Source of the DNA: Escherichia coli
GTDB lineage: Bacteria > Pseudomonadota > Gammaproteobacteria > Enterobacterales > Enterobacteriaceae
Assembly: GCF_003334305.1 (NCBI RefSeq)
Contig: NZ_QOWS01000026.1
Reading direction: 5' to 3' (one strand)
Length of the DNA stretch: 64,000 nt
Shown: positions 8,744 through 54,980 of the stretch, piece by piece
Numbering within the stretch: the first letter of the stretch is position 1
Layout of the letters: the number at the start of each line of letters is the position of its first letter
The notes under the pieces: model-generated
The model's database searches: none
Told to the model about the DNA's origin: nothing
What the model saw: the letters and a program-made list of their open reading frames with translations, nothing else
Position numbers and translations under genes: made by a program

Positions 8744-8869
8744 GCCGGATGCGGCGCGAGCGCCTTATCCGGCCTACAGGTCGGCAACAGTTGTAGGCCT
8801 GATAAGACGCGACAGCGTCGCATCAGGCATTGATTGCCGGATGCGGCACGAGCGCCTTATCCGGCCTAC
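8744..8869. repeat. REP/BIME cluster (three REP units)
   Basis: gccggatgcggcgcgagcgccttatccggcctac at 8744..8777, an inverted copy at 8793..8828, and a third at 8836..8869. Confidence 0.85.
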
Positions 8870-17359: not shown

Positions 17360-20300
17360 ATGCAGGTCAGCAGAAGGCAGTTCTTTAAGATCTGCGCTGG
17401 CGGTATGGCAGGCACCACGGCAGCGGCACTGGGTTTTGCACCCAGCGTAGCGCTCGCGGAAACCCGGCAGTATAAACTGCTGCGCACCCGCGAAACCCGT
17501 AATACCTGCACCTATTGTTCCGTAGGCTGTGGGCTGTTGATGTACAGCCTCGGTGACGGAGCAAAAAACGCCAAAGCATCTATCTTCCATATCGAAGGCG
17601 ATCCGGATCACCCGGTCAACCGCGGTGCACTTTGTCCGAAAGGCGCTGGCCTGGTGGATTTCATCCACTCCGAAAGCCGTCTGAAGTTTCCGGAATACCG
17701 TGCGCCAGGTTCTGATAAATGGCAGCAAATCAGTTGGGAAGAGGCGTTTGATCGCATCGCCAAACTGATGAAAGAAGACCGCGATGCTAACTACATTGCG
17801 CAAAACGCCGAAGGCGTGACTGTTAACCGCTGGCTCTCCACCGGGATGCTGTGTGCTTCCGCGTCGAGTAACGAAACCGGCTATTTAACGCAAAAATTCT
17901 CCCGCGCGCTGGGTATGCTCGCGGTCGACAACCAGGCGCGTGTCTGACACGGACCAACGGTAGCAAGTCTTGCTCCAACATTTGGTCGCGGTGCGATGAC
18001 CAACCACTGGGTCGACATCAAGAACGCCAACCTCGTCGTGGTGATGGGCGGTAACGCCGCTGAAGCTCACCCGGTCGGGTTCCGCTGGGCGATGGAAGCC
18101 AAAATTCACAACGGCGCGAAGCTGATTGTGATCGATCCTCGCTTTACGCGTACGGCGGCGGTAGCTGACTACTATGCCCCTATTCGTTCCGGTACTGACA
18201 TTGCTTTCCTGTCAGGCGTATTGCTGTACCTGCTGAACAATGAAAAATTCAACCGCGAATACACCGAAGCCTATACCAACGCAAGCCTGATAGTGCGTGA
18301 GGATTACGGCTTTGAAGATGGCCTGTTCACCGGCTACGACGCGGAAAAACGCAAGTACGATAAATCCTCCTGGACTTATGAACTGGACGAAAACGGCTTC
18401 GCCAAACGCGATACCACGCTGCAACATCCGCGCTGCGTGTGGAACTTGCTGAAACAGCACGTTTCCCGCTACACGCCAGATGTGGTTGAAAACATCTGTG
18501 GTACGCCAAAAGACGCGTTCCTGAAAGTCTGCGAATACATCGCAGAAACCAGTGCTCACGATAAAACTGCCTCGTTCCTCTATGCCCTCGGCTGGACGCA
18601 ACACTCCGTTGGTGCGCAAAACATTCGTACGATGGCGATGATCCAGCTGCTGCTCGGCAATATGGGGATGGCCGGCGGCGGCGTTAACGCCCTGCGCGGT
18701 CACTCCAATATTCAGGGGCTGACGGACCTGGGGCTGCTGTCGCAGAGTCTGCCAGGTTACATGACGCTGCCAAGCGAGAAGCAGACCGATCTGCAAACCT
18801 ACCTTACCGCCAACACGCCAAAACCGCTGCTGGAAGGCCAGGTAAACTACTGGGGCAACTACCCGAAATTCTTCGTCTCTATGATGAAGGCCTTCTTTGG
18901 TGATAAAGCGACGGCGGAAAATAGCTGGGGCTTTGACTGGTTGCCGAAGTGGGATAAAGGCTACGACGTCCTGCAATACTTCGAGATGATGAAAGAAGGC
19001 AAGGTCAATGGCTATATCTGCCAGGGCTTTAACCCTGTTGCCTCATTCCCGAACAAAAACAAAGTGATCGGTTGTCTGTCGAAACTGAAGTTCCTCGTCA
19101 CCATCGACCCGCTGAACACTGAAACCTCTAACTTCTGGCAGAACCACGGTGAGCTGAACGAAGTTGACTCGTCGAAGATCCAGACCGAAGTGTTCCGTCT
19201 GCCATCGACCTGCTTCGCAGAAGAGAACGGTTCAATCGTTAACTCAGGTCGCTGGTTGCAGTGGCACTGGAAAGGTGCGGACGCCCCGGGGATTGCGCTG
19301 ACTGATGGCGAGATCCTCTCCGGTATCTTCCTGCGCTTGCGCAAGATGTATGCCGAACAGGGTGGCGCGAACCCGGACCAGGTGCTGAACATGACCTGGA
19401 ACTACGCCATTCCGCATGAGCCGAAGTCGGAAGAAGTAGCGATGGAGAGCAACGGTAAGGCGCTGGCCGATATTACCGATCCGGCAACCGGTGCGGTTAT
19501 CGTCAAGAAAGGCCAACAACTTAGCTCGTTCGCCCAATTGCGCGATGACGGTACAACCTCCTGTGGCTGCTGGATTTTCGCCGGTAGCTGGACGCCGGAA
19601 GGCAACCAGATGGCGCGTCGTGATAACGCCGATCCGTCTGGCCTCGGTAACACGCTGGGCTGGGCATGGGCATGGCCGCTTAACCGCCGCATTCTGTATA
19701 ACCGCGCCTCCGCAGATCCGCAGGGTAACCCGTGGGATCCGAAGCGTCAGTTGCTGAAATGGGACGGCACTAAGTGGACCGGCTGGGATATTCCGGACTA
19801 CAGCGCAGCGCCTCCGGGTAGCGGCGTCGGGCCGTTTATCATGCAGCAGGAAGGCATGGGGCGTCTGTTTGCCCTCGATAAGATGGCGGAAGGTCCGTTC
19901 CCGGAACACTACGAGCCGTTTGAAACGCCGCTGGGAACTAACCCGCTGCATCCAAACGTTATCTCGAACCCGGCTGCACGTATCTTTAAAGACGACGCCG
20001 AAGCATTGGGTAAAGCCGATAAGTTCCCGTATGTCGGAACCACCTATCGTCTGACCGAGCATTTCCACTACTGGACCAAACACGCGCTGTTGAACGCGAT
20101 TTTGCAACCAGAGCAGTTTGTGGAAATCGGGGAGTCGCTGGCGAATAAACTTGGCATTGCCCAGGGCGATACCGTGAAAGTCTCCTCCAACCGTGGCTAT
20201 ATCAAGGCCAAAGCGGTGGTGACCAAACGTATTCGTACACTGAAAGTGAACGGCAAAGATATCGATACCATCGGTATTCCGATTCACTGGGGCTATGAAG

Positions 20301-44291: not shown

Positions 44292-44455
44292 TGTTTAATC
44301 CTTTTGGTTTAAACCAGATGAAGCATCTTACGCTTACGCCAAAAAAGAAAGCAATTAACGGCGTATGACTTTGCAGATAATTGTGACAAAGCTCTCTATT
44401 GACGTAATCCCAGACTTATAAGGGAGATACTCGCATTGGTGTGCGCTCACGACAG

Positions 44456-44492
44456 GTAAAAAAAAACCTGCCAGCGATGGCAGGTTTTTTAT
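44456..44492 (-). terminator. typA (bipA) rho-independent terminator
   Basis: Stem cctgccagcgatggcagg flanked by A- and T-runs, 16 bp downstream of typA stop. Confidence 0.7.
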
Positions 44493-44507
44493 AACTAAAA
44501 AACGAAA

Positions 44508-46331
44508 TTAATCGTCTTTCGGTGCGCGGTTGGCGCGGCGACGATCGTTTTCCGTCAGGTGACGTTTACGAATACGGATAGAGGTCGGAGTCACTTCTAC
44601 TAGTTCGTCATCATCGATGAACTCCAGAGCTTGTTCCAGAGTCATGCGGATAGGCGGAACCAGAACAACGGCTTCGTCAGTACCGGAAGCACGCATGTTG
44701 GTCAGTTTCTTACCGGTCAGGCAGTTTACCGTCAGGTCGTTAGAGCGGCTATGAATACCGATAATCTGACCTTCGTAAACTTCTGCACCGTGACCGAGGA
44801 ACAGCTTACCGCGATCCTGCAGACCGAACAGCGCGAACGCGACCGCTTTACCCTGACCGTTAGAGATCAGTACGCCGTTCTGACGCTGACCCACTTCACC
44901 CGGACGTACGTCGTCGTAGTGGCTGAAGGTGGAGTACAGCAGACCAGTACCGGAAGTCATGGTCATGAACTCAGAACGGAAGCCAATCAGACCACGGCTT
45001 GGGATCACGTAGTCGAGACGTACGCGGCCTTTACCGTCTGGATTCATGTTTTTCAGGTCGCCTTTACGTTCGCCCAGCGCCTGCATTACAGAACCCTGAT
45101 GCTGTTCTTCAACGTCCAGAGTCACGTTTTCATATGGCTCTTGTTTACGACCGTCGATTTCACGGAAGATAACTTTCGGACGGGATACCGCCAGTTCGAA
45201 ACCTTCACGACGCATGTTTTCGATCAGAACAGACAGGTGTAGTTCGCCACGACCAGAAACGCGGAACGCATCAGCGTCTTCGGTTTCTTCTACGCGCAGC
45301 GCAACGTTGTGTACCAGTTCTTTGTTCAGACGATCCAGGATCTGACGAGACGTTACGAACTTACCTTCTTTACCGCAGAACGGCGAGGTGTTAACGCAGA
45401 AGAACATAGAAACGGTCGGCTCATCAACGGAGAGTGCCGGCAGCGCTTCAACGTTTTGCGTGTCGCAAACGGTGTCAGAAATGTTCAGTTCGCCAAGGCC
45501 CGTGATCGCAACGATATCGCCAGCTTCCGCCAGGTCGGTTTCGATACGTTCCAGACCGAGGTGGCCCAGCACTTTACCGACTTTCGCGTTGCGGGTTTTG
45601 CCTTCGCTATCGATGATAGTGACCTGCTGGTTCGGCTTCACTTTACCGCGCTTGATGCGGCCAATGCCGATAACGCCAACATAGCTGTTGTAATCGAGCT
45701 GAGAAATCTGCATCTGGAACGGACCGTCAAGGTCAACGTCCGGCGCAGGAACGTGGTCAACAATCGCCTGGTACAGCGGGGTCATGTCTTCCGCCATATC
45801 TTCGTGGTCCAGACCCGCGATACCGTTCAGCGCAGAAGCGTAAACGATCGGGAAGTCCAACTGCTCGTCGGTCGCGTCGAGGTTAACGAACAGATCGAAT
45901 ACCTGATCCACAACCCAATCAGGACGCGCGCCAGGGCGGTCAACTTTGTTGATAACAACAATCGGCTTCAGGCCGTAAGCAAACGCTTTTTTGGTTACGA
46001 AGCGCGTTTGCGGCATCGGGCCGTCAAATGCGTCAACCACCAGCAGCACTGAGTCTACCATGGACATTACACGTTCAACTTCACCACCGAAGTCGGCGTG
46101 CCCCGGGGTATCAACGATGTTGATACGGTAATCATTCCATTTGATAGCGGTGTTTTTCGCGAGGATGGTAATCCCACGCTCTTTCTCCAAATCGTTGGAG
46201 TCCATCACGCGCTCTTGGGTTTCGGCACGAGAGTCGAACGTACCGGATTGTTGGAGCAGCTTGTCTACCAGGGTGGTTTTACCATGGTCTACGTGCGCGA
46301 TGATGGCGATATTACGCAATTTTTCGATCAC
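44508..46331 (-). CDS. typA: Ribosome-associated translational GTPase BipA/TypA
   Basis: 607 aa ORF (M)[25 protein letters not shown]...; first codon is GTG at 46331. Confidence 0.96.
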
Positions 46332-46482
46332 AACTTTGCCTCAGGCATTAGAAATAGCGCGTTATTGTACACGGATTAATCGCACTACAAAACAGGATCA
46401 CAAACATCCTCCGCAAACAAGTATTGCAGAGTCCCTTTGTGATCGCTTTCACGGAGCATAAAAAGGGTTATCCAAAGGTCAT

Positions 46483-46573
46483 TGCACCAACATGGTGCTT
46501 AATGTTTCCATTGAAGCACTATATTGGTGCAACATTCACATCGTGGTGCAGCCCTTTTGCACGATGGTGCGCA
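46483..46573. promoter_or_regulatory. NtrC enhancer-like sites upstream of glnA
   Basis: Repeated TGCACCA/TGGTGCA dyads: tgcaccaacatggtgc (46483..46498), gcactatattggtgca (46516..46531), tggtgcagcccttttgcacgatggtgcgca (46544..46573). Confidence 0.6.
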
Positions 46574-46602
46574 TGATAACGCCTTTTAGGGGCAATTTAA
46601 AA

Positions 46603-46620
46603 GTTGGCACAGATTTCGCT
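46603..46620 (+). promoter_or_regulatory. sigma-54 promoter glnAp2
   Basis: TTGGCACAGATTTCGCT: GG and GC dinucleotides at the -24/-12 spacing, about 85 bp upstream of glnA ATG. Confidence 0.8.
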
Positions 46621-46703: not shown

Positions 46704-48113
46704 ATGTCCGCTGAACACGTACTGACGATGCTGAACGAGCACGAAGTGAAGTTTGTTGATTTGCGCTTCACCGATACTAAAGGTAAAGAACAGCACGTCA
46801 CTATCCCTGCTCATCAGGTGAATGCTGAATTCTTCGAAGAAGGCAAAATGTTTGACGGCTCCTCGATTGGCGGCTGGAAAGGCATTAACGAGTCCGACAT
46901 GGTGCTGATGCCAGACGCATCCACCGCAGTGATTGACCCGTTCTTCGCCGACTCCACCCTGATTATCCGTTGCGACATCCTTGAACCTGGCACCCTGCAA
47001 GGCTATGACCGTGACCCGCGCTCCATTGCGAAGCGCGCCGAAGATTACCTGCGTTCCACTGGCATTGCCGACACCGTACTGTTCGGGCCAGAACCTGAAT
47101 TCTTCCTGTTCGATGACATCCGTTTCGGATCATCTATCTCCGGTTCCCACGTTGCTATCGACGATATCGAAGGCGCATGGAACTCCTCCACCCAATACGA
47201 AGGTGGTAACAAAGGTCACCGTCCGGCAGTGAAAGGCGGTTACTTCCCGGTTCCACCGGTAGACTCGGCTCAGGATATTCGTTCTGAAATGTGTCTGGTG
47301 ATGGAACAGATGGGTCTGGTGGTTGAAGCCCATCACCACGAAGTAGCGACTGCTGGTCAGAACGAAGTGGCTACCCGCTTCAATACCATGACCAAAAAAG
47401 CTGACGAAATTCAGATCTACAAATATGTTGTGCACAACGTAGCGCACCGCTTCGGTAAAACCGCGACCTTTATGCCAAAACCGATGTTCGGTGATAACGG
47501 CTCCGGTATGCACTGCCACATGTCTCTGTCTAAAAACGGCGTTAACCTGTTCGCAGGCGACAAATACGCAGGTCTGTCTGAGCAGGCGCTGTACTACATT
47601 GGCGGCGTAATCAAACACGCTAAAGCGATTAACGCCCTGGCAAACCCGACCACCAACTCTTATAAGCGTCTGGTCCCGGGCTATGAAGCACCGGTAATGC
47701 TGGCTTACTCTGCGCGTAACCGTTCTGCGTCTATCCGTATTCCGGTGGTTTCTTCTCCGAAAGCACGTCGTATCGAAGTACGTTTCCCGGATCCGGCAGC
47801 TAACCCGTACCTGTGCTTTGCTGCCCTGCTGATGGCCGGTCTTGATGGTATCAAGAACAAGATCCATCCGGGCGAAGCCATGGACAAAAACCTGTATGAC
47901 CTGCCGCCAGAAGAAGCGAAAGAGATCCCACAGGTTGCAGGCTCTCTGGAAGAAGCACTGAACGAACTGGATCTGGACCGCGAGTTCCTGAAAGCCGGTG
48001 GCGTGTTCACTGACGAAGCAATTGATGCGTACATCGCTCTGCGTCGCGAAGAAGATGACCGCGTGCGTATGACTCCGCATCCGGTAGAGTTTGAGCTGTA
48101 CTACAGCGTCTAA
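46704..48113 (+). CDS. glnA: Glutamine synthetase
   Basis: 469 aa [42 protein letters not shown]...; GGAGAG SD. Confidence 0.97.
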
Positions 48114-48346
48114 TAGTTGAAGTTGTACTACCCGGCGCAACAACGCCGGAGGTTCAAACCAGGCCCATCTGGCGTAATTGTTGCAGCCAGTTTGAACACG
48201 GACAGCGCGCAGAACCCGGAGCGTACACTGGTACGTGAGGAGTTCGAGCACTGCCCAGGTTCAAAATGGCAAATAAAATAGCCTGATGGGACTGGTTTTT
48301 AGTTGCCGTGGAAATTTCAGCCCATCTCTGCATGGGCTTTTTTCTC
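48114..48346 (+). ncRNA. glnZ: glnA 3'UTR; probable GlnZ 3'UTR-derived sRNA
   Basis: About 230 nt between glnA stop and its intrinsic terminator; assignment rests on the published location of GlnZ, not on a recognised sequence. Confidence 0.45.
48317..48346 (+). terminator. glnA terminator
   Basis: Stem agcccat / atgggct followed by tttttt. Confidence 0.7.
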
Positions 48347-48431
48347 CGTCAATTCTCTGATGCTTCGCGCTTTTTATCCGTAAAAAGCTATAATGCACTA
48401 AAATGGTGCAACCTGTTCAGGAGACTGCTTT

Positions 48432-49481
48432 ATGGCAACAGGCACGCAGCCCGATGCTGGGCAGATCCTCAACTCGCTGATTAACAGTATTTTGTTAATC
48501 GATGACAACCTGGCGATCCATTACGCCAACCCTGCCGCGCAACAACTGCTCGCCCAAAGCTCCCGCAAATTGTTTGGTACACCGTTACCGGAACTGTTGA
48601 GCTACTTCTCATTAAATATCGAGCTGATGCAAGAAAGTCTGGAGGCGGGGCAAGGTTTTACCGATAACGAAGTGACGCTGGTCATCGACGGGCGCTCGCA
48701 TATCCTTTCTGTGACGGCCCAGCGTATGCCGGACGGCATGATCCTGCTGGAGATGGCTCCGATGGATAACCAGCGCCGCTTAAGTCAGGAACAGCTACAG
48801 CACGCCCAGCAGGTTGCTGCCCGTGATTTAGTGCGCGGCCTGGCACATGAGATTAAAAATCCGCTTGGCGGTTTACGTGGCGCGGCGCAGCTGCTCAGCA
48901 AAGCGTTACCTGACCCATCACTACTCGAATATACCAAAGTGATTATCGAACAGGCGGACCGGCTGCGAAATCTGGTCGACCGTCTGTTGGGGCCGCAGCT
49001 GCCCGGTACGCGCGTTACCGAAAGTATTCACAAAGTGGCTGAACGCGTGGTAACGCTGGTGTCGATGGAACTGCCGGACAACGTGCGGTTGATTCGTGAT
49101 TACGATCCCAGCCTGCCGGAACTGGCGCACGACCCGGATCAAATTGAACAGGTCTTGCTGAATATTGTGCGCAATGCGCTACAGGCGCTGGGGCCGGAAG
49201 GCGGTGAAATCATTCTGCGTACCCGCACCGCGTTTCAACTGACCTTACACGGCGAGCGCTACCGGCTGGCGGCGCGGATTGATGTGGAAGATAACGGGCC
49301 GGGCATTCCGCCTCATTTGCAGGATACGCTGTTTTACCCGATGGTCAGCGGCCGCGAAGGTGGCACCGGGCTTGGCTTATCCATCGCTCGTAATTTGATT
49401 GATCAGCATTCAGGCAAAATTGAATTTACCAGTTGGCCAGGGCATACCGAGTTCTCGGTTTACCTGCCTATCAGGAAATAA
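48432..49481 (+). CDS. glnL: Nitrogen regulation sensor kinase NtrB
   Basis: 349 aa ORF with H-box (..[11 protein letters not shown]..) and G-box ATPase motifs. Confidence 0.96.
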
Positions 49482-53385: not shown

Positions 53386-53451
53386 AATGGTTCGTCTTTT
53401 AGCCGTTTTATTCAGTATAGATTTGCGGCGGAATCTAACAGAAAGCAAGCA

Positions 53452-53696
53452 AAGAAAAAAGGCGACAGATTACTCTGTCGCCTTTTTTCCTGACTCATAA
53501 CCCTTAACGGGTCTTACAATCCTTGCAGGCCGCCAACACACCCTGTTTTTCCTTTAGCCGGAACAATCCGTGTTGATTCCATTTCCGTTTAATTACGTCT
53601 CCGGACGTTTGTCTTCCTGACAATCCTCTGTCTTCGCCTCCTGGCGCTCCTGACCCTCATCCTGAGTCATTGTTCCTGTTAGCGTCCTCGCTCTAT
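53452..53696 (-). ncRNA. csrC: CsrC small RNA (CsrA-sequestering)
   Basis: Minus-strand region dense in GGA/AGGA motifs ending in the hairpin ggcgacagagtaatctgtcgcc plus U-tract, 67 bp upstream of yihI; ends are approximate. Confidence 0.75.
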
Positions 53697-54724: not shown

Positions 54725-54833
54725 TAAAAAACGCCCCAGTCATTACTGACTGGGGCGGCTAAAATATTCAGCCAAATCCGATTACGTGAAGTAAAAGGTC
54801 TGAAAGATAGAACATCTTACCTCTGTACCCTAC
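54725..54833 (-). ncRNA. spf: Spot 42 small RNA
   Basis: Minus-strand sequence GTAGGGTACAGAGGTAAGATGTTCTATCTTTCAGACC...GCCGCCCCAGTCAGTAATGACTGGGGCGTTTTTTATT matches Spot 42 including its terminator; lies between engB and polA as in K-12. Confidence 0.88.
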
Positions 54834-54980
54834 GCGACTAACTTTACTCTTTTTTGTTCAGTTCAGAAAGCACTTTTTGTAATTTTTTTTCAGTTGTTGC
54901 ATAGGAATTTCTAATAGCCATCACAAAACGTGACAGCTTATGTTGCTTACTTACGAAAAAAGGGCATGTTCAGGCGAATC

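What the first reader, a model, noticed from the sequence alone, without database searches (positions are those of the whole stretch)
48114..48346. Long glnA 3'UTR, probable GlnZ sRNA
About 230 nt separate the glnA stop from its terminator. A 3'UTR-derived sRNA (GlnZ) is reported from this position in enterobacteria, but I did not recognise the sequence itself.
Basis: established knowledge. Interest (0 to 1): 0.3.

Follow-up and report, generated by a model that had tools for sequence, protein, structure and literature searches.

The report
GlnZ sRNA with inserted RSA repeat
The stretch after the glutamine synthetase gene is the already published "O111-type" form of the GlnZ regulatory RNA; it is long only because a 142-nt mobile palindromic repeat sits just upstream of its conserved target-binding sequence.

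Summary
glnA ends at 48113, and an intrinsic terminator (hairpin 48319-48338, U-run to 48344) follows 231 nt later.

The interpretation also holds. The published GlnZ seed 5'-UUGCCGUGGAAA sits at 48303-48314, directly before a terminator identical to that of K-12 GlnZ. The length matches the 230-nt "O111-type" glnA 3'UTR that Miyakoshi et al. 2022 detected by Northern blot. The same stretch occurs in 993 of 5,426 complete E. coli genomes. So this is a known sRNA variant, not a new one.

New annotation-level points:
- The extra 146 nt relative to the 85-nt O157 type are one complete copy of a dispersed palindromic MITE. It has about 5 copies per E. coli genome and 6 in K-12, which fits the "RSA" repeat.
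- The copy lies at a TTAG immediately 5' of the seed.
- K-12 carries a REP element and Salmonella an ERIC element in the same 3'UTR. Three repeat families have therefore invaded it, each sparing the seed and terminator.

Unexpected: the 26-nt apex of the RSA hairpin is identical in elements from Planctomycetota, Chlorobiales, Deltaproteobacteria, Alpha- and Betaproteobacteria and Bacillaceae. There it sits on stems that covary. It matches no Rfam family, and I cannot explain it.

The parts
46605..46620 (+). glnAp2 sigma-54 promoter (TGGCAC-N5-TCGCT), with NtrC-site-like TGCACC...GGTGCA repeats upstream (46485-46575). It drives the glnA-GlnZ transcript under nitrogen limitation.
   Evidence: Read directly from the sequence. 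The identification rests on established knowledge of glnAp2 and was not tested here.
46704..48113 (+). glnA coding sequence (glutamine synthetase, 469 aa), the parental mRNA of GlnZ.
   Evidence: ORF list. The protein is identical to E. coli GlnA. RefSeq annotation of identical loci agrees.
48114..48344 (+). glnA 3'UTR, the full-length O111-type GlnZ precursor (231 nt).
48132..48149 (+). Small hairpin CCGGCG-CAACAA-CGCCGG, shared with the O157 (EsrF) type and absent from K-12.
   Evidence: Alignment and fold.
48153..48156 (+). Degenerate left copy (TTCA) of the TTAG target-site duplication.
   Evidence: Comparison with the empty O157 site and with the clean filled/empty pair at hemE-nfi. This is an inference.
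48157..48298 (+). RSA-type palindromic MITE (142 nt), with terminal inverted repeats AACCAGG / CCTGGTT. It forms one long imperfect hairpin in the RNA.
   Evidence: 146-nt difference from the O157 type. Inverted repeats and fold. Dispersed family with a median of 5 copies per E. coli genome. Alignment with four other loci.
48216..48240 (+). Apex of the RSA hairpin: CC-GGAG-CGTAC-ACTG-GTACG-TGA-GG. This is the part conserved across phyla.
48296..48302 (+). U-rich single-stranded linker UUUUUAG, which contains the right TTAG duplication (48299-48302). It is the predicted RNase E entry and cleavage site. K-12 GlnZ194 starts with the same UUUUAGUUGCC.
   Evidence: Sequence comparison with the annotated K-12 glnZ 5' end. 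Cleavage here is inferred, not shown.
48303..48314 (+). GlnZ seed UUGCCGUGGAAA.
   Evidence: Exact match to the published seed. Complementary to UCCACGGC 43-36 nt upstream of the sucA AUG and to CCACGG about 20 nt upstream of the glnP AUG in K-12.
48319..48344 (+). Rho-independent terminator (AGCCCAT-CTCTGC-ATGGGCT plus U6). It is presumed to bind Hfq and marks the 3' end of GlnZ.
   Evidence: Terminator scan. Identical in K-12, O157 and the window. It ends where K-12 glnZ is annotated to end.

Best explanation
The region is the O111-type allele of glnZ, the 3'UTR-derived, Hfq-dependent sRNA of the glutamine synthetase mRNA.

How it works (published for K-12, O157 and Salmonella; inferred for this allele): under nitrogen limitation, NtrC and sigma-54 activate glnAp2, and the glnA transcript ends at the intrinsic terminator at 48319-48344. 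RNase E, with Hfq, releases 3' fragments that keep the seed (48303-48314) and the terminator. The seed pairs with the sucA 5'UTR and the glnP translation initiation region, and in E. coli also with aceE. This lowers 2-oxoglutarate dehydrogenase and glutamine uptake, balancing carbon and nitrogen flux.

The allele is long because a 142-nt RSA-type MITE transposed into a TTAG immediately 5' of the seed of an O157-like 85-nt 3'UTR. In the RNA the element folds into one self-contained hairpin. The U-rich linker, seed and terminator therefore keep the arrangement of a minimal GlnZ.

I infer that RNase E cuts in the UUUUUAG linker at 48296-48302, the same context as the 5' end of K-12 GlnZ194. That cut would give a core sRNA of about 49 nt.
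For: Position and strand: directly 3' of glnA and 5' of glnL.

Seed: exact match to the published seed at 48303-48314.

Terminator: identical to K-12 and O157, with the 3' end coinciding with the annotated K-12 glnZ b4836.

Length: 231 nt against the published 230-nt O111 type, whose GlnZ transcripts were seen by Northern blot and induced on glutamine, both in O111 and in a K-12 strain carrying the O111 UTR.

Distribution: 100% identical in O111:H8 and many other strains, 993 of 5,426 genomes.

Targets: the seed is complementary to K-12 sucA (8 contiguous nt at -43 to -36) and to glnP.

Unpaired seed: after removal of the upstream part, mean P(unpaired) over the whole seed is 0.61, and its first 7 nt (UUGCCGU) are unpaired in the MFE structure.

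RNase E and Hfq dependence and target validation are published.

MITE nature of the insert: the family has a median of 5 copies per genome; hemE-nfi gives a clean filled/empty pair with a TTAG duplication; the right junction at glnA is ...TTAG|TTGCC, as in the empty O157 site.
Against: There are no expression data for this strain.

Target regulation by the O111 allele itself was not reported in the text I read. Only its expression, and the lack of effect on GlnA and NtrC, were reported.

In the full-length fold the seed is partly paired (mean P(unpaired) 0.30).

The duplex energy with the sucA leader is no better than for shuffled queries (140 of 300 shuffles were as good). Complementarity alone therefore proves little.

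The allele lacks the C that follows the seed in O157 and K-12 (GGAAA-UUUC).

The left junction of the insert is diverged (GAGG TTCA against the expected GGAT TTAG). The simple insertion history is therefore not fully shown.
Confidence: 0.93

Rival explanations
1. The 3'UTR is only a passive landing pad for a selfish MITE. In this lineage the large hairpin disturbs processing or Hfq loading, so GlnZ is weakened or non-functional.
For: 63% of the UTR is repeat DNA. The seed is partly sequestered in the full-length MFE structure. Walling et al. note that a REP insertion in E. fergusonii MgrR abolished regulation of a known target despite an identical seed.
Against: The seed, linker and terminator are untouched and 100% conserved in 993 genomes. 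O111 GlnZ species accumulate and are induced by nitrogen limitation. K-12 and Salmonella GlnZ work with equally large REP or ERIC hairpins.
Confidence: 0.05
2. The main role of the long structured UTR is cis-regulatory: it tunes termination or read-through from glnA into glnLG, or stabilises glnA mRNA, rather than acting in trans.
For: The terminator lies between glnA and glnLG in one operon. Deleting the terminator slightly lowered GlnA in K-12. MITE hairpins (ERIC, Correia) are known to alter the stability of host mRNAs.
Against: Replacing the K-12 UTR with the O157 or O111 UTR had a negligible effect on GlnA and NtrC levels. glnL has its own promoter downstream of the terminator (sequence; established knowledge). 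This role would add to the sRNA function, not replace it.
Confidence: 0.1
3. The region encodes a small protein: the 54-aa ORF at 48117-48281 (+) or the 59-aa ORF at 48154-48333 (-).
For: Both ORFs appear in the mechanical ORF list.
Against: The + ORF starts at TTG 3 nt after the glnA stop, with no Shine-Dalgarno sequence. Both ORFs lie inside a repeat whose other copies differ by indels and by compensatory stem changes, not codon-preserving ones. Both are absent from the O157 and K-12 alleles.
Confidence: 0.01

Closest known systems
GlnZ, O111 type (Miyakoshi et al. 2022, eLife 11:e82411)
   Same: Same locus. Length is 231 nt here against 230 nt published. It has the same AGGUUCAAA direct repeats (48150-48158 and 48257-48265) and the same seed-next-to-terminator layout. 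It is 100% identical to O111:H8 genomes.
   Different: Nothing substantive: this is that allele. My alignment disagrees with the paper's description of 'a 98 nt insertion flanked by direct repeats'. The difference from the O157 type is 146 nt, and it is one whole repeat element.
GlnZ of E. coli K-12 (glnZ, b4836; Walling et al. 2022; class III)
   Same: Same locus, seed, terminator and 3' end. The same UUUUAGUUGCC sequence is at the K-12 5' end and at the window's linker.
   Different: In K-12 the seed is 7 nt after the stop codon, and a REP/BIME hairpin lies between seed and terminator. Here the seed abuts the terminator, and a different repeat (RSA) lies upstream of it.
EsrF / O157-type GlnZ (85-nt 3'UTR, class I)
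   Same: Identical except for the insert: the first 36 nt, the seed, the terminator and the whole region down to glnL.
   Different: It lacks the 146-nt RSA insertion. It has GGAAAC where the window has GGAAA.
Salmonella enterica GlnZ (185-nt 3'UTR, class II)
   Same: Same architecture: stop codon, large palindromic insert, U-rich linker, seed, terminator.
   Different: The insert is an ERIC/IRU element, not RSA (ERIC identification from memory of the ERIC1R and ERIC2 primer cores). There is an extra G before the seed, and the terminator loop differs.
RSA repeat of E. coli K-12 (150/151 bp, 6 copies in the original GenBank annotation)
   Same: The copy number in K-12 strains is 6, against 6 in PMC5172473 Table 1. 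The length is 142-147 nt against 150/151. It is an intergenic imperfect palindrome.
   Different: I could not obtain an RSA reference sequence or its coordinates, so the name is an inference. The current RefSeq K-12 record does not annotate it.
ERIC/IRU and other bacterial MITEs (Correia, YPAL)
   Same: They are long imperfect palindromes with terminal inverted repeats and short target duplications. They sit in transcribed intergenic regions and are known to create RNase E or RNase III sites in host mRNAs. The ERIC apex (GGAG-CAUAG-loop-CGAUG-UGA in the Salmonella copy) has the same layout as the RSA apex.
   Different: The terminal repeats and arm sequences differ. The strict RSA-apex pattern does not hit the ERIC copy.

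Membership tests
GlnZ (glnA 3'UTR-derived sRNA) | Encoded on the sense strand directly downstream of the glnA stop codon and upstream of glnLG. | tested here: met
   glnA 46704-48113, UTR 48114-48344, glnL from 48432, all on the + strand.
GlnZ (glnA 3'UTR-derived sRNA) | Conserved seed 5'-UUGCCGUGGAAA-3'. | tested here: met
   Exact match at 48303-48314. It aligns with the seed of O157, Salmonella and Leclercia.
GlnZ (glnA 3'UTR-derived sRNA) | Conserved Rho-independent terminator that forms the sRNA 3' end. | tested here: met
   Hairpin 48319-48338 plus U6. It is identical to the K-12 and O157 terminator and coincides with the annotated K-12 glnZ 3' end.
GlnZ (glnA 3'UTR-derived sRNA) | Seed complementarity to the sucA 5'UTR and the glnP translation initiation region. 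| tested here: inconclusive
   UCCACGGC lies at -43 to -36 of sucA, and CCACGG(UAAC) about 20 nt before the glnP AUG. The glnP duplex beats 286 of 300 shuffles, but the sucA duplex does not beat shuffles. Compensatory mutations for other alleles are published.
GlnZ (glnA 3'UTR-derived sRNA) | Released from glnA mRNA by RNase E, Hfq-dependent, induced by nitrogen limitation through NtrC. | not testable with these tools
   Published for K-12 and Salmonella. Northern detection of the O111 type is published. Here only the glnAp2-like promoter and the RN|WUU-like linker can be read from the sequence.
GlnZ (glnA 3'UTR-derived sRNA) | Match to a curated RNA family model. | tested here: not met
   No Rfam 15 family matches 48114-48346 at the gathering threshold, and only chance-level hits appear at E<10 (sX9, Ysr49). 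No GlnZ model matched, so this says nothing against membership.
RSA intergenic repeat (E. coli) | Dispersed element of about 150 bp, 6 copies in K-12. | tested here: met
   The insert family is found in 5,426 of 5,426 genomes: median 5 places, 6 in K-12 strains, about 85% identity. The published figure for RSA is 150/151 bp and 6 copies.
RSA intergenic repeat (E. coli) | Sequence identity to a reference RSA copy. | not testable with these tools
   No RSA reference sequence or coordinates were available. The K-12 RefSeq record shows no repeat feature at the ycbX-rlmL copy.
MITE (miniature inverted-repeat transposable element) | Terminal inverted repeats, target-site duplication and presence/absence polymorphism. 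| tested here: met
   TIR is AGCCTGG/CCAGGCT. At hemE-nfi the TTAG is duplicated in the filled site and single in the empty site. That locus is filled in 308 genomes, and most other genomes give 234-bp two-piece matches consistent with an empty site. At glnA the site is filled in 993 genomes. Scalindua copies show variable 4-bp flanking duplications.
MITE (miniature inverted-repeat transposable element) | An identifiable autonomous partner (transposase-encoding IS with the same ends). | tested here: not met
   A scan of 38 Scalindua loci for extra TIR copies found only further small elements, and no TIR pair enclosing a gene. E. coli was not examined.
ERIC / IRU | ERIC core sequence (…CCCCAGGAGC…GTGACTGGGGTGAGCG…). 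| tested here: not met
   The window insert lacks it. The Salmonella glnA UTR has it.

The most novel reading that the evidence does not exclude
The repeat inside this GlnZ allele belongs to an undescribed, very widely distributed class of mobile hairpins.

Their 26-nt apex is CC-GGAG-CGUAC-(3 to 5 nt loop)-GUACG-UGA-GG, that is, a 5-bp hairpin on a purine-rich internal loop. The apex is kept identical from E. coli to Planctomycetota, Chlorobiales, Deltaproteobacteria, Alpha- and Betaproteobacteria and Bacillaceae rrn-operon trailers. The terminal repeats and arms differ between lineages, and the adjoining helix covaries.

This is the reverse of a normal MITE, where the ends are conserved and the inside is free to vary. 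It points to a selected RNA or single-stranded-DNA module recognised by a conserved cellular factor. ERIC may be a divergent member.

If so, GlnZ alleles carry a functional module that could affect their processing or partners.
Probability: 0.3. Interest if true: 0.65.

Novelty: already known. Interest (0 to 1): 0.3.

Why it matters
For the finding itself, the result settles the annotation. This window carries a functional-looking glnZ allele that RefSeq pipelines leave unannotated ('none' under the match in the genomes listed). About a fifth of complete E. coli genomes share it.

It also corrects the anatomy of that allele. The insert is a whole 142-nt RSA-type MITE at a TTAG next to the seed, not a 98-nt insertion.

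It shows that REP, RSA and ERIC elements have each colonised the same 3'UTR while sparing the roughly 45-nt seed-and-terminator core. This is a compact natural experiment on how much baggage a 3'UTR sRNA tolerates, and on how MITE hairpins may set RNase cleavage sites.

The cross-phylum conservation of the hairpin apex would matter more widely if it holds up. It would be a candidate structured nucleic-acid motif with no family assignment, and one testable in E. coli.

Tried and rejected
1. Rfam. No GlnZ family and no significant hit for the UTR or the repeat. None of the matches at gathering threshold in 13 foreign loci (rRNA, tRNA, Bacillaceae-1, SAM-I/IV) covers the motif position.

2. Similarity of the apex to the 23S sarcin-ricin loop (AGUACGUGAGGA against AGUACGAGAGGA, with CCGGAG nearby). 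Local alignment against a 23S 3' domain scores no better than shuffles. Rejected as chance.

3. K-turn, integron attC, REPIN/RAYT and IS200/IS605-hairpin readings of the apex. By inspection of the sequences, the bulge geometry, orientation in arrays, conserved-end pattern and presence of target duplications do not fit. No formal test was run.

4. RU-3 of Delihas 2007. It is a REP/BIME, not this element.

5. A relaxed apex pattern (GGAG, 5-bp stem, TGA, closing pairs) scanned over the window and the glnA loci. It found only the RSA copy itself and missed the Salmonella ERIC because of an A/C mismatch next to the loop. The ERIC relationship therefore rests on inspection only.

6. Search for an autonomous element with the same ends in Scalindua loci: none.

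7. Literature search for the motif as text. The only hit was a PCR primer in the 5' exon of group IIC intron B.h.I1, at the end of B. halodurans rrn operons. MITE reviews do not mention RSA.

8. Duplex energy as evidence for sucA targeting: not distinguishable from shuffles.

9. The small ORFs in the UTR: rejected (see rival explanations).

Full report
**What is there.** The window is an E. coli typA-glnA-glnL-glnG segment. glnA occupies 46704-48113 on the + strand and ends with TAA at 48111-48113. glnL starts at 48432. A terminator-like hairpin lies at 48319-48338 (AGCCCAT-CTCTGC-ATGGGCT), followed by six T's at 48339-48344. In K-12 the annotated glnZ gene (b4836) ends at the last T of the identical run. 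The 3'UTR is therefore 48114-48344, 231 nt.

**Is it GlnZ?** Rfam 15 gave no GlnZ match. Neither the gathering-threshold scan of the whole window nor a permissive scan of 47900-48600 gave anything but chance-level hits. The literature gives the test instead.

- Miyakoshi et al. 2022 (PMC9731577) define the conserved seed as 5'-UUGCCGUGGAAA-3'. They sort E. coli glnA 3'UTRs into a 197-nt K-12 type, an 85-nt O157 type and a 230-nt O111 type.
- The seed is present exactly at 48303-48314, four nucleotides before the terminator hairpin.
- In a three-way alignment the window equals the O157 allele apart from one block of 146 extra nucleotides and one missing C after the seed. All three alleles are identical from the terminator to glnL.
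- The AGGTTCAAA direct repeats that the paper mentions are at 48150-48158 and 48257-48265.
- The 233-nt stretch is 99-100% identical in 993 of 5,426 complete E. coli genomes, including O111:H8. The K-12 type is in 1,571. About 2,560 give the two-piece match expected of the O157 type.
- For the O111 type the paper reports GlnZ species of 3'UTR size plus processed forms, induced on glutamine. This was seen in an O111 strain and in K-12 carrying the O111 UTR, with no effect on GlnA or NtrC levels.

**How it works.** The published mechanism is as follows. The glnA mRNA is made from the NtrC/sigma-54 promoter. RNase E, with Hfq, releases the 3'UTR. The seed then represses sucA and glnP, and aceE in E. 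coli. What I could check here:

- A glnAp2-like TGGCAC-N5-TCGCT lies at 46605-46620, with NtrC-site-like repeats upstream.
- The seed is complementary to UCCACGGC at -43 to -36 of K-12 sucA, and to CCACGG about 20 nt before the glnP AUG.
- By duplex energy, the glnP pairing beats 286 of 300 shuffles, but the sucA pairing does not. Complementarity alone is therefore weak evidence.
- In the full-length fold the seed is partly paired (mean P(unpaired) 0.30). In a fragment starting at 48296 the mean rises to 0.61, and the first 7 nt (UUGCCGU) are unpaired in the MFE structure.
- K-12 GlnZ194 begins UUUUAGUUGCCGUGG, and the window has UUUUUAGUUGCCGUGG at 48296. I therefore infer an RNase E cut in this linker, giving a core of about 49 nt. 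This step is inferred, not shown.

**What the extra 146 nt are.** They form one long imperfect hairpin. The inverted-repeat arms are 48156-48173/48281-48298 and 48186-48208/48248-48270. The whole UTR folds at -96.7 kcal/mol, z = -5.9.

- A sensitive BLAST shows that the insert belongs to a dispersed family. It is present in every one of 5,426 E. coli genomes, with a median of 5 copies, up to 8, and 6 in K-12 strains. Identity to this copy is about 85%.
- Other copies lie between nfi and hemE, between pheM and pheS, between qseG and qseE, and between rlmL and ycbX. They align end to end with the glnA copy.
- The only repeat family of that size and copy number in the original K-12 annotation is 'RSA' (150/151 bp, 6 copies; PMC5172473 Table 1). 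I use that name but could not check it against a reference sequence.
- At hemE-nfi the element is present in 308 genomes, and most other genomes give 234-bp two-piece matches consistent with an empty site. The empty site reads CTCC-TTAG-CGGTGA. The filled site reads CTCC-TTAG-[AGCCTGG…CCAGGCTC]-TTAG-CGGTGA. This is a MITE with terminal inverted repeats and a 4-5-bp target duplication.
- At glnA the empty O157 site is GGAT-TTAG-TTGCCGTGGAAA. The window's right junction is …CTGGTTT-TTAG-TTGCC, so the element landed directly 5' of the seed. The left junction is diverged (GAGG-TTCA-AACCAGG).
- The glnA copy differs from the family consensus by three double, pair-preserving changes in its basal stem (AAACCAGG/CCTGGTTT against AGAGCCTG/CAGGCTCT).
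- The paper's '98 nt insertion flanked by direct repeats' does not account for the 145-nt length difference. The second AGGTTCAAA is ordinary RSA arm sequence, also present in Aeromonas and Citrobacter copies.

**Three repeat families in one UTR.** K-12 GlnZ carries a REP/BIME between seed and terminator (Walling et al.; the PU sequence is visible). I fetched a Salmonella enterica glnA locus. Its 3'UTR carries …ATCCCCAGGAGCATAGATAGCGATGTGACTGGGGTAAGCGAAGGCAGCCAACGCAG… upstream of GAGTTGCCGTGGAAAC and the terminator. This is an ERIC/IRU element, recognised from memory of the ERIC primer cores. Leclercia has a short UTR with only a small hairpin. Neither GlnZ paper uses the terms RSA or ERIC. 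REP, RSA and ERIC have therefore each entered this UTR, and each time the linker, seed and terminator core was spared.

**The unexpected part.** I used my one genome-collection scan on the RSA apex (CCGGAGCGTAC-N3-5-GTACGTGAGGA). The pattern has 22 fixed bases, so about one chance hit is expected in the collection by my own estimate.

- Besides Enterobacterales and Aeromonas, hits came from two Ca. Scalindua MAGs (dozens of copies) and a Syntrophus MAG (12). They also came from Chlorobiales, Desulfobacterales, Myxococcales, Rickettsiaceae, Rhodoferax, Paucibacter, Devosia, Microbulbifer and Bacillus.
- In every lineage the apex tops a long hairpin whose arms are lineage-specific.
- The 4-bp helix next to the apex covaries: GAAA/TTTC, GTAA/TTAC, GTCA/TGAC, GCAA/TTGC, GGAA/TTCC, GCCA/TGGC, GAAC/GTTC, GTCC/GACC. 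Its four positions pair in 75-96% of sequences, against 27-64% in shifted registers. The loop is free, with 40 variants.
- Scalindua copies have variable 4-bp flanking duplications, so they transposed recently. A Scalindua subfamily shows a changed apex (GGAA…GUACU), so the apex is not absolutely fixed.
- In Bacillus fonticola the motif lies in two rrn-operon trailers, after the 5S rRNA and beside Bacillaceae-1 motifs. The only literature occurrence of the sequence is a primer in the 5' exon of group IIC intron B.h.I1, which sits at the end of four B. halodurans rrn operons.
- The ERIC apex has the same layout (GGAG, 5-bp stem-loop, UGA). A strict pattern does not capture it.
- The resemblance to the sarcin-ricin loop is at chance level.

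Conserved inside and variable ends is the opposite of an ordinary MITE. I have no tested explanation for it.

**Verdict.** The finding is a correct identification of a published sRNA allele: already known, low to moderate interest. The added value is threefold: the exact anatomy (RSA-type MITE at the seed-proximal TTAG), the three-family pattern across GlnZ alleles, and the unexplained cross-phylum hairpin apex.

Noticed in passing
window 48216-48240; loci L011-L130: The 26-nt apex of the inserted RSA hairpin (CCGGAGCGTAC-N3-5-GTACGTGAGGA) recurs exactly in Planctomycetota (Scalindua, dozens of copies), Syntrophus, Chlorobiales, Desulfobacterales, Myxococcales, Rickettsiaceae, Beta- and Alphaproteobacteria and Bacillus. 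It always tops a long hairpin with lineage-specific arms and a covarying adjacent helix. It matches no Rfam family.
   Followed up: partly
L131 2611-2790 (Salmonella enterica glnA 3'UTR): The Salmonella GlnZ 'insertion' is an ERIC/IRU element. With REP in K-12 and RSA here, three different palindromic repeat families occupy the glnA 3'UTR, and all spare the seed and terminator. The ERIC apex GGAG-CAUAG-AUAG-CGAUG-UGA has the same layout as the RSA apex.
   Followed up: partly
L006 1186-1341 vs L136 (hemE-nfi intergenic): This is a clean filled/empty polymorphism of an RSA copy: 147 bp extra, TTAG duplicated, TIR AGCCTGG/CCAGGCT. The site is filled in only 308 of 5,426 E. coli genomes. RSA has therefore been mobile within the species.
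   Followed up: yes
window 48150-48158 and 48257-48265: The AGGTTCAAA direct repeats, cited in the literature as flanking a 98-nt insertion, do not delimit the insert. The second is normal RSA arm sequence. The first sits at the diverged left junction, where GGAT-TTAG would be expected.
   Followed up: partly
L137 405-460 (E. coli HS-02 glnA 3'UTR): A fourth, very short allele (about 52 nt): TAGTTGAAGTTGTTCGGGAAACTTCAGCCC…. It lacks the CCGGCG hairpin and has an altered seed (UUGUUCGGGAAA instead of UUGCCGUGGAAA). Its frequency is unknown. Roughly 280 genomes fit none of the three published types by my counts.
   Followed up: no
L042 47-709 and L043 1-1220 (Bacillus fonticola): The RSA-like apex lies in the trailers of two rRNA operons, after the 5S rRNA and next to Bacillaceae-1 RNA motifs. 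The same motif is in the shared 5' exon of group IIC intron B.h.I1 at the end of four B. halodurans rrn operons (PMC1702495).
   Followed up: partly
L017, L038, L041, L046, L060, L061 (Yersinia, Photorhabdus, Citrobacter, a soil proteobacterial MAG): Some RSA-like copies carry a second element of about 60 nt (…CTCGCTTCGCTCACCCTCTGGGCCGC…GTTCAAAATGCC…), nested right after GAGGATTTT in the 3' arm. Part of it resembles ERIC arm sequence.
   Followed up: no
window 48088-48104 and 48115-48131: The first 17 nt of the 3'UTR (AGTTGAAGTTGTACTAC) are an 82% copy of the last codons of glnA (AGTTTGAGCTGTACTAC), 27 nt upstream. This looks like an old tandem duplication across the stop codon. It is shared with the O157 type and absent from K-12.
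   Followed up: no
window 46413-46520 (-): Rfam ES222 sRNA (135 bits) lies on the strand opposite to glnA, across the NtrC-site region upstream of glnAp2. Other Rfam hits in the window: CsrC at 53443-53696 (-), Spot 42 at 54725-54843 (-), SECIS_3 at 17942-18000 (+), naRNA4 at 8796-8866 (-), STnc370 at 44455-44523 (-).
   Followed up: no
window 48389-48410: Downstream of the terminator, TATAAT (48389-48394) overlaps the palindrome TGCACTAAAATGGTGCA (48394-48410). This is the glnL promoter with its NtrC operator (established knowledge). It is identical in all three E. coli alleles.
   Followed up: no
RefSeq E. coli genomes: PGAP-annotated genomes show no feature under the glnA 3'UTR for any allele type. 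Only the curated K-12 MG1655 record carries glnZ. GlnZ is systematically unannotated because no Rfam model exists.
   Followed up: no
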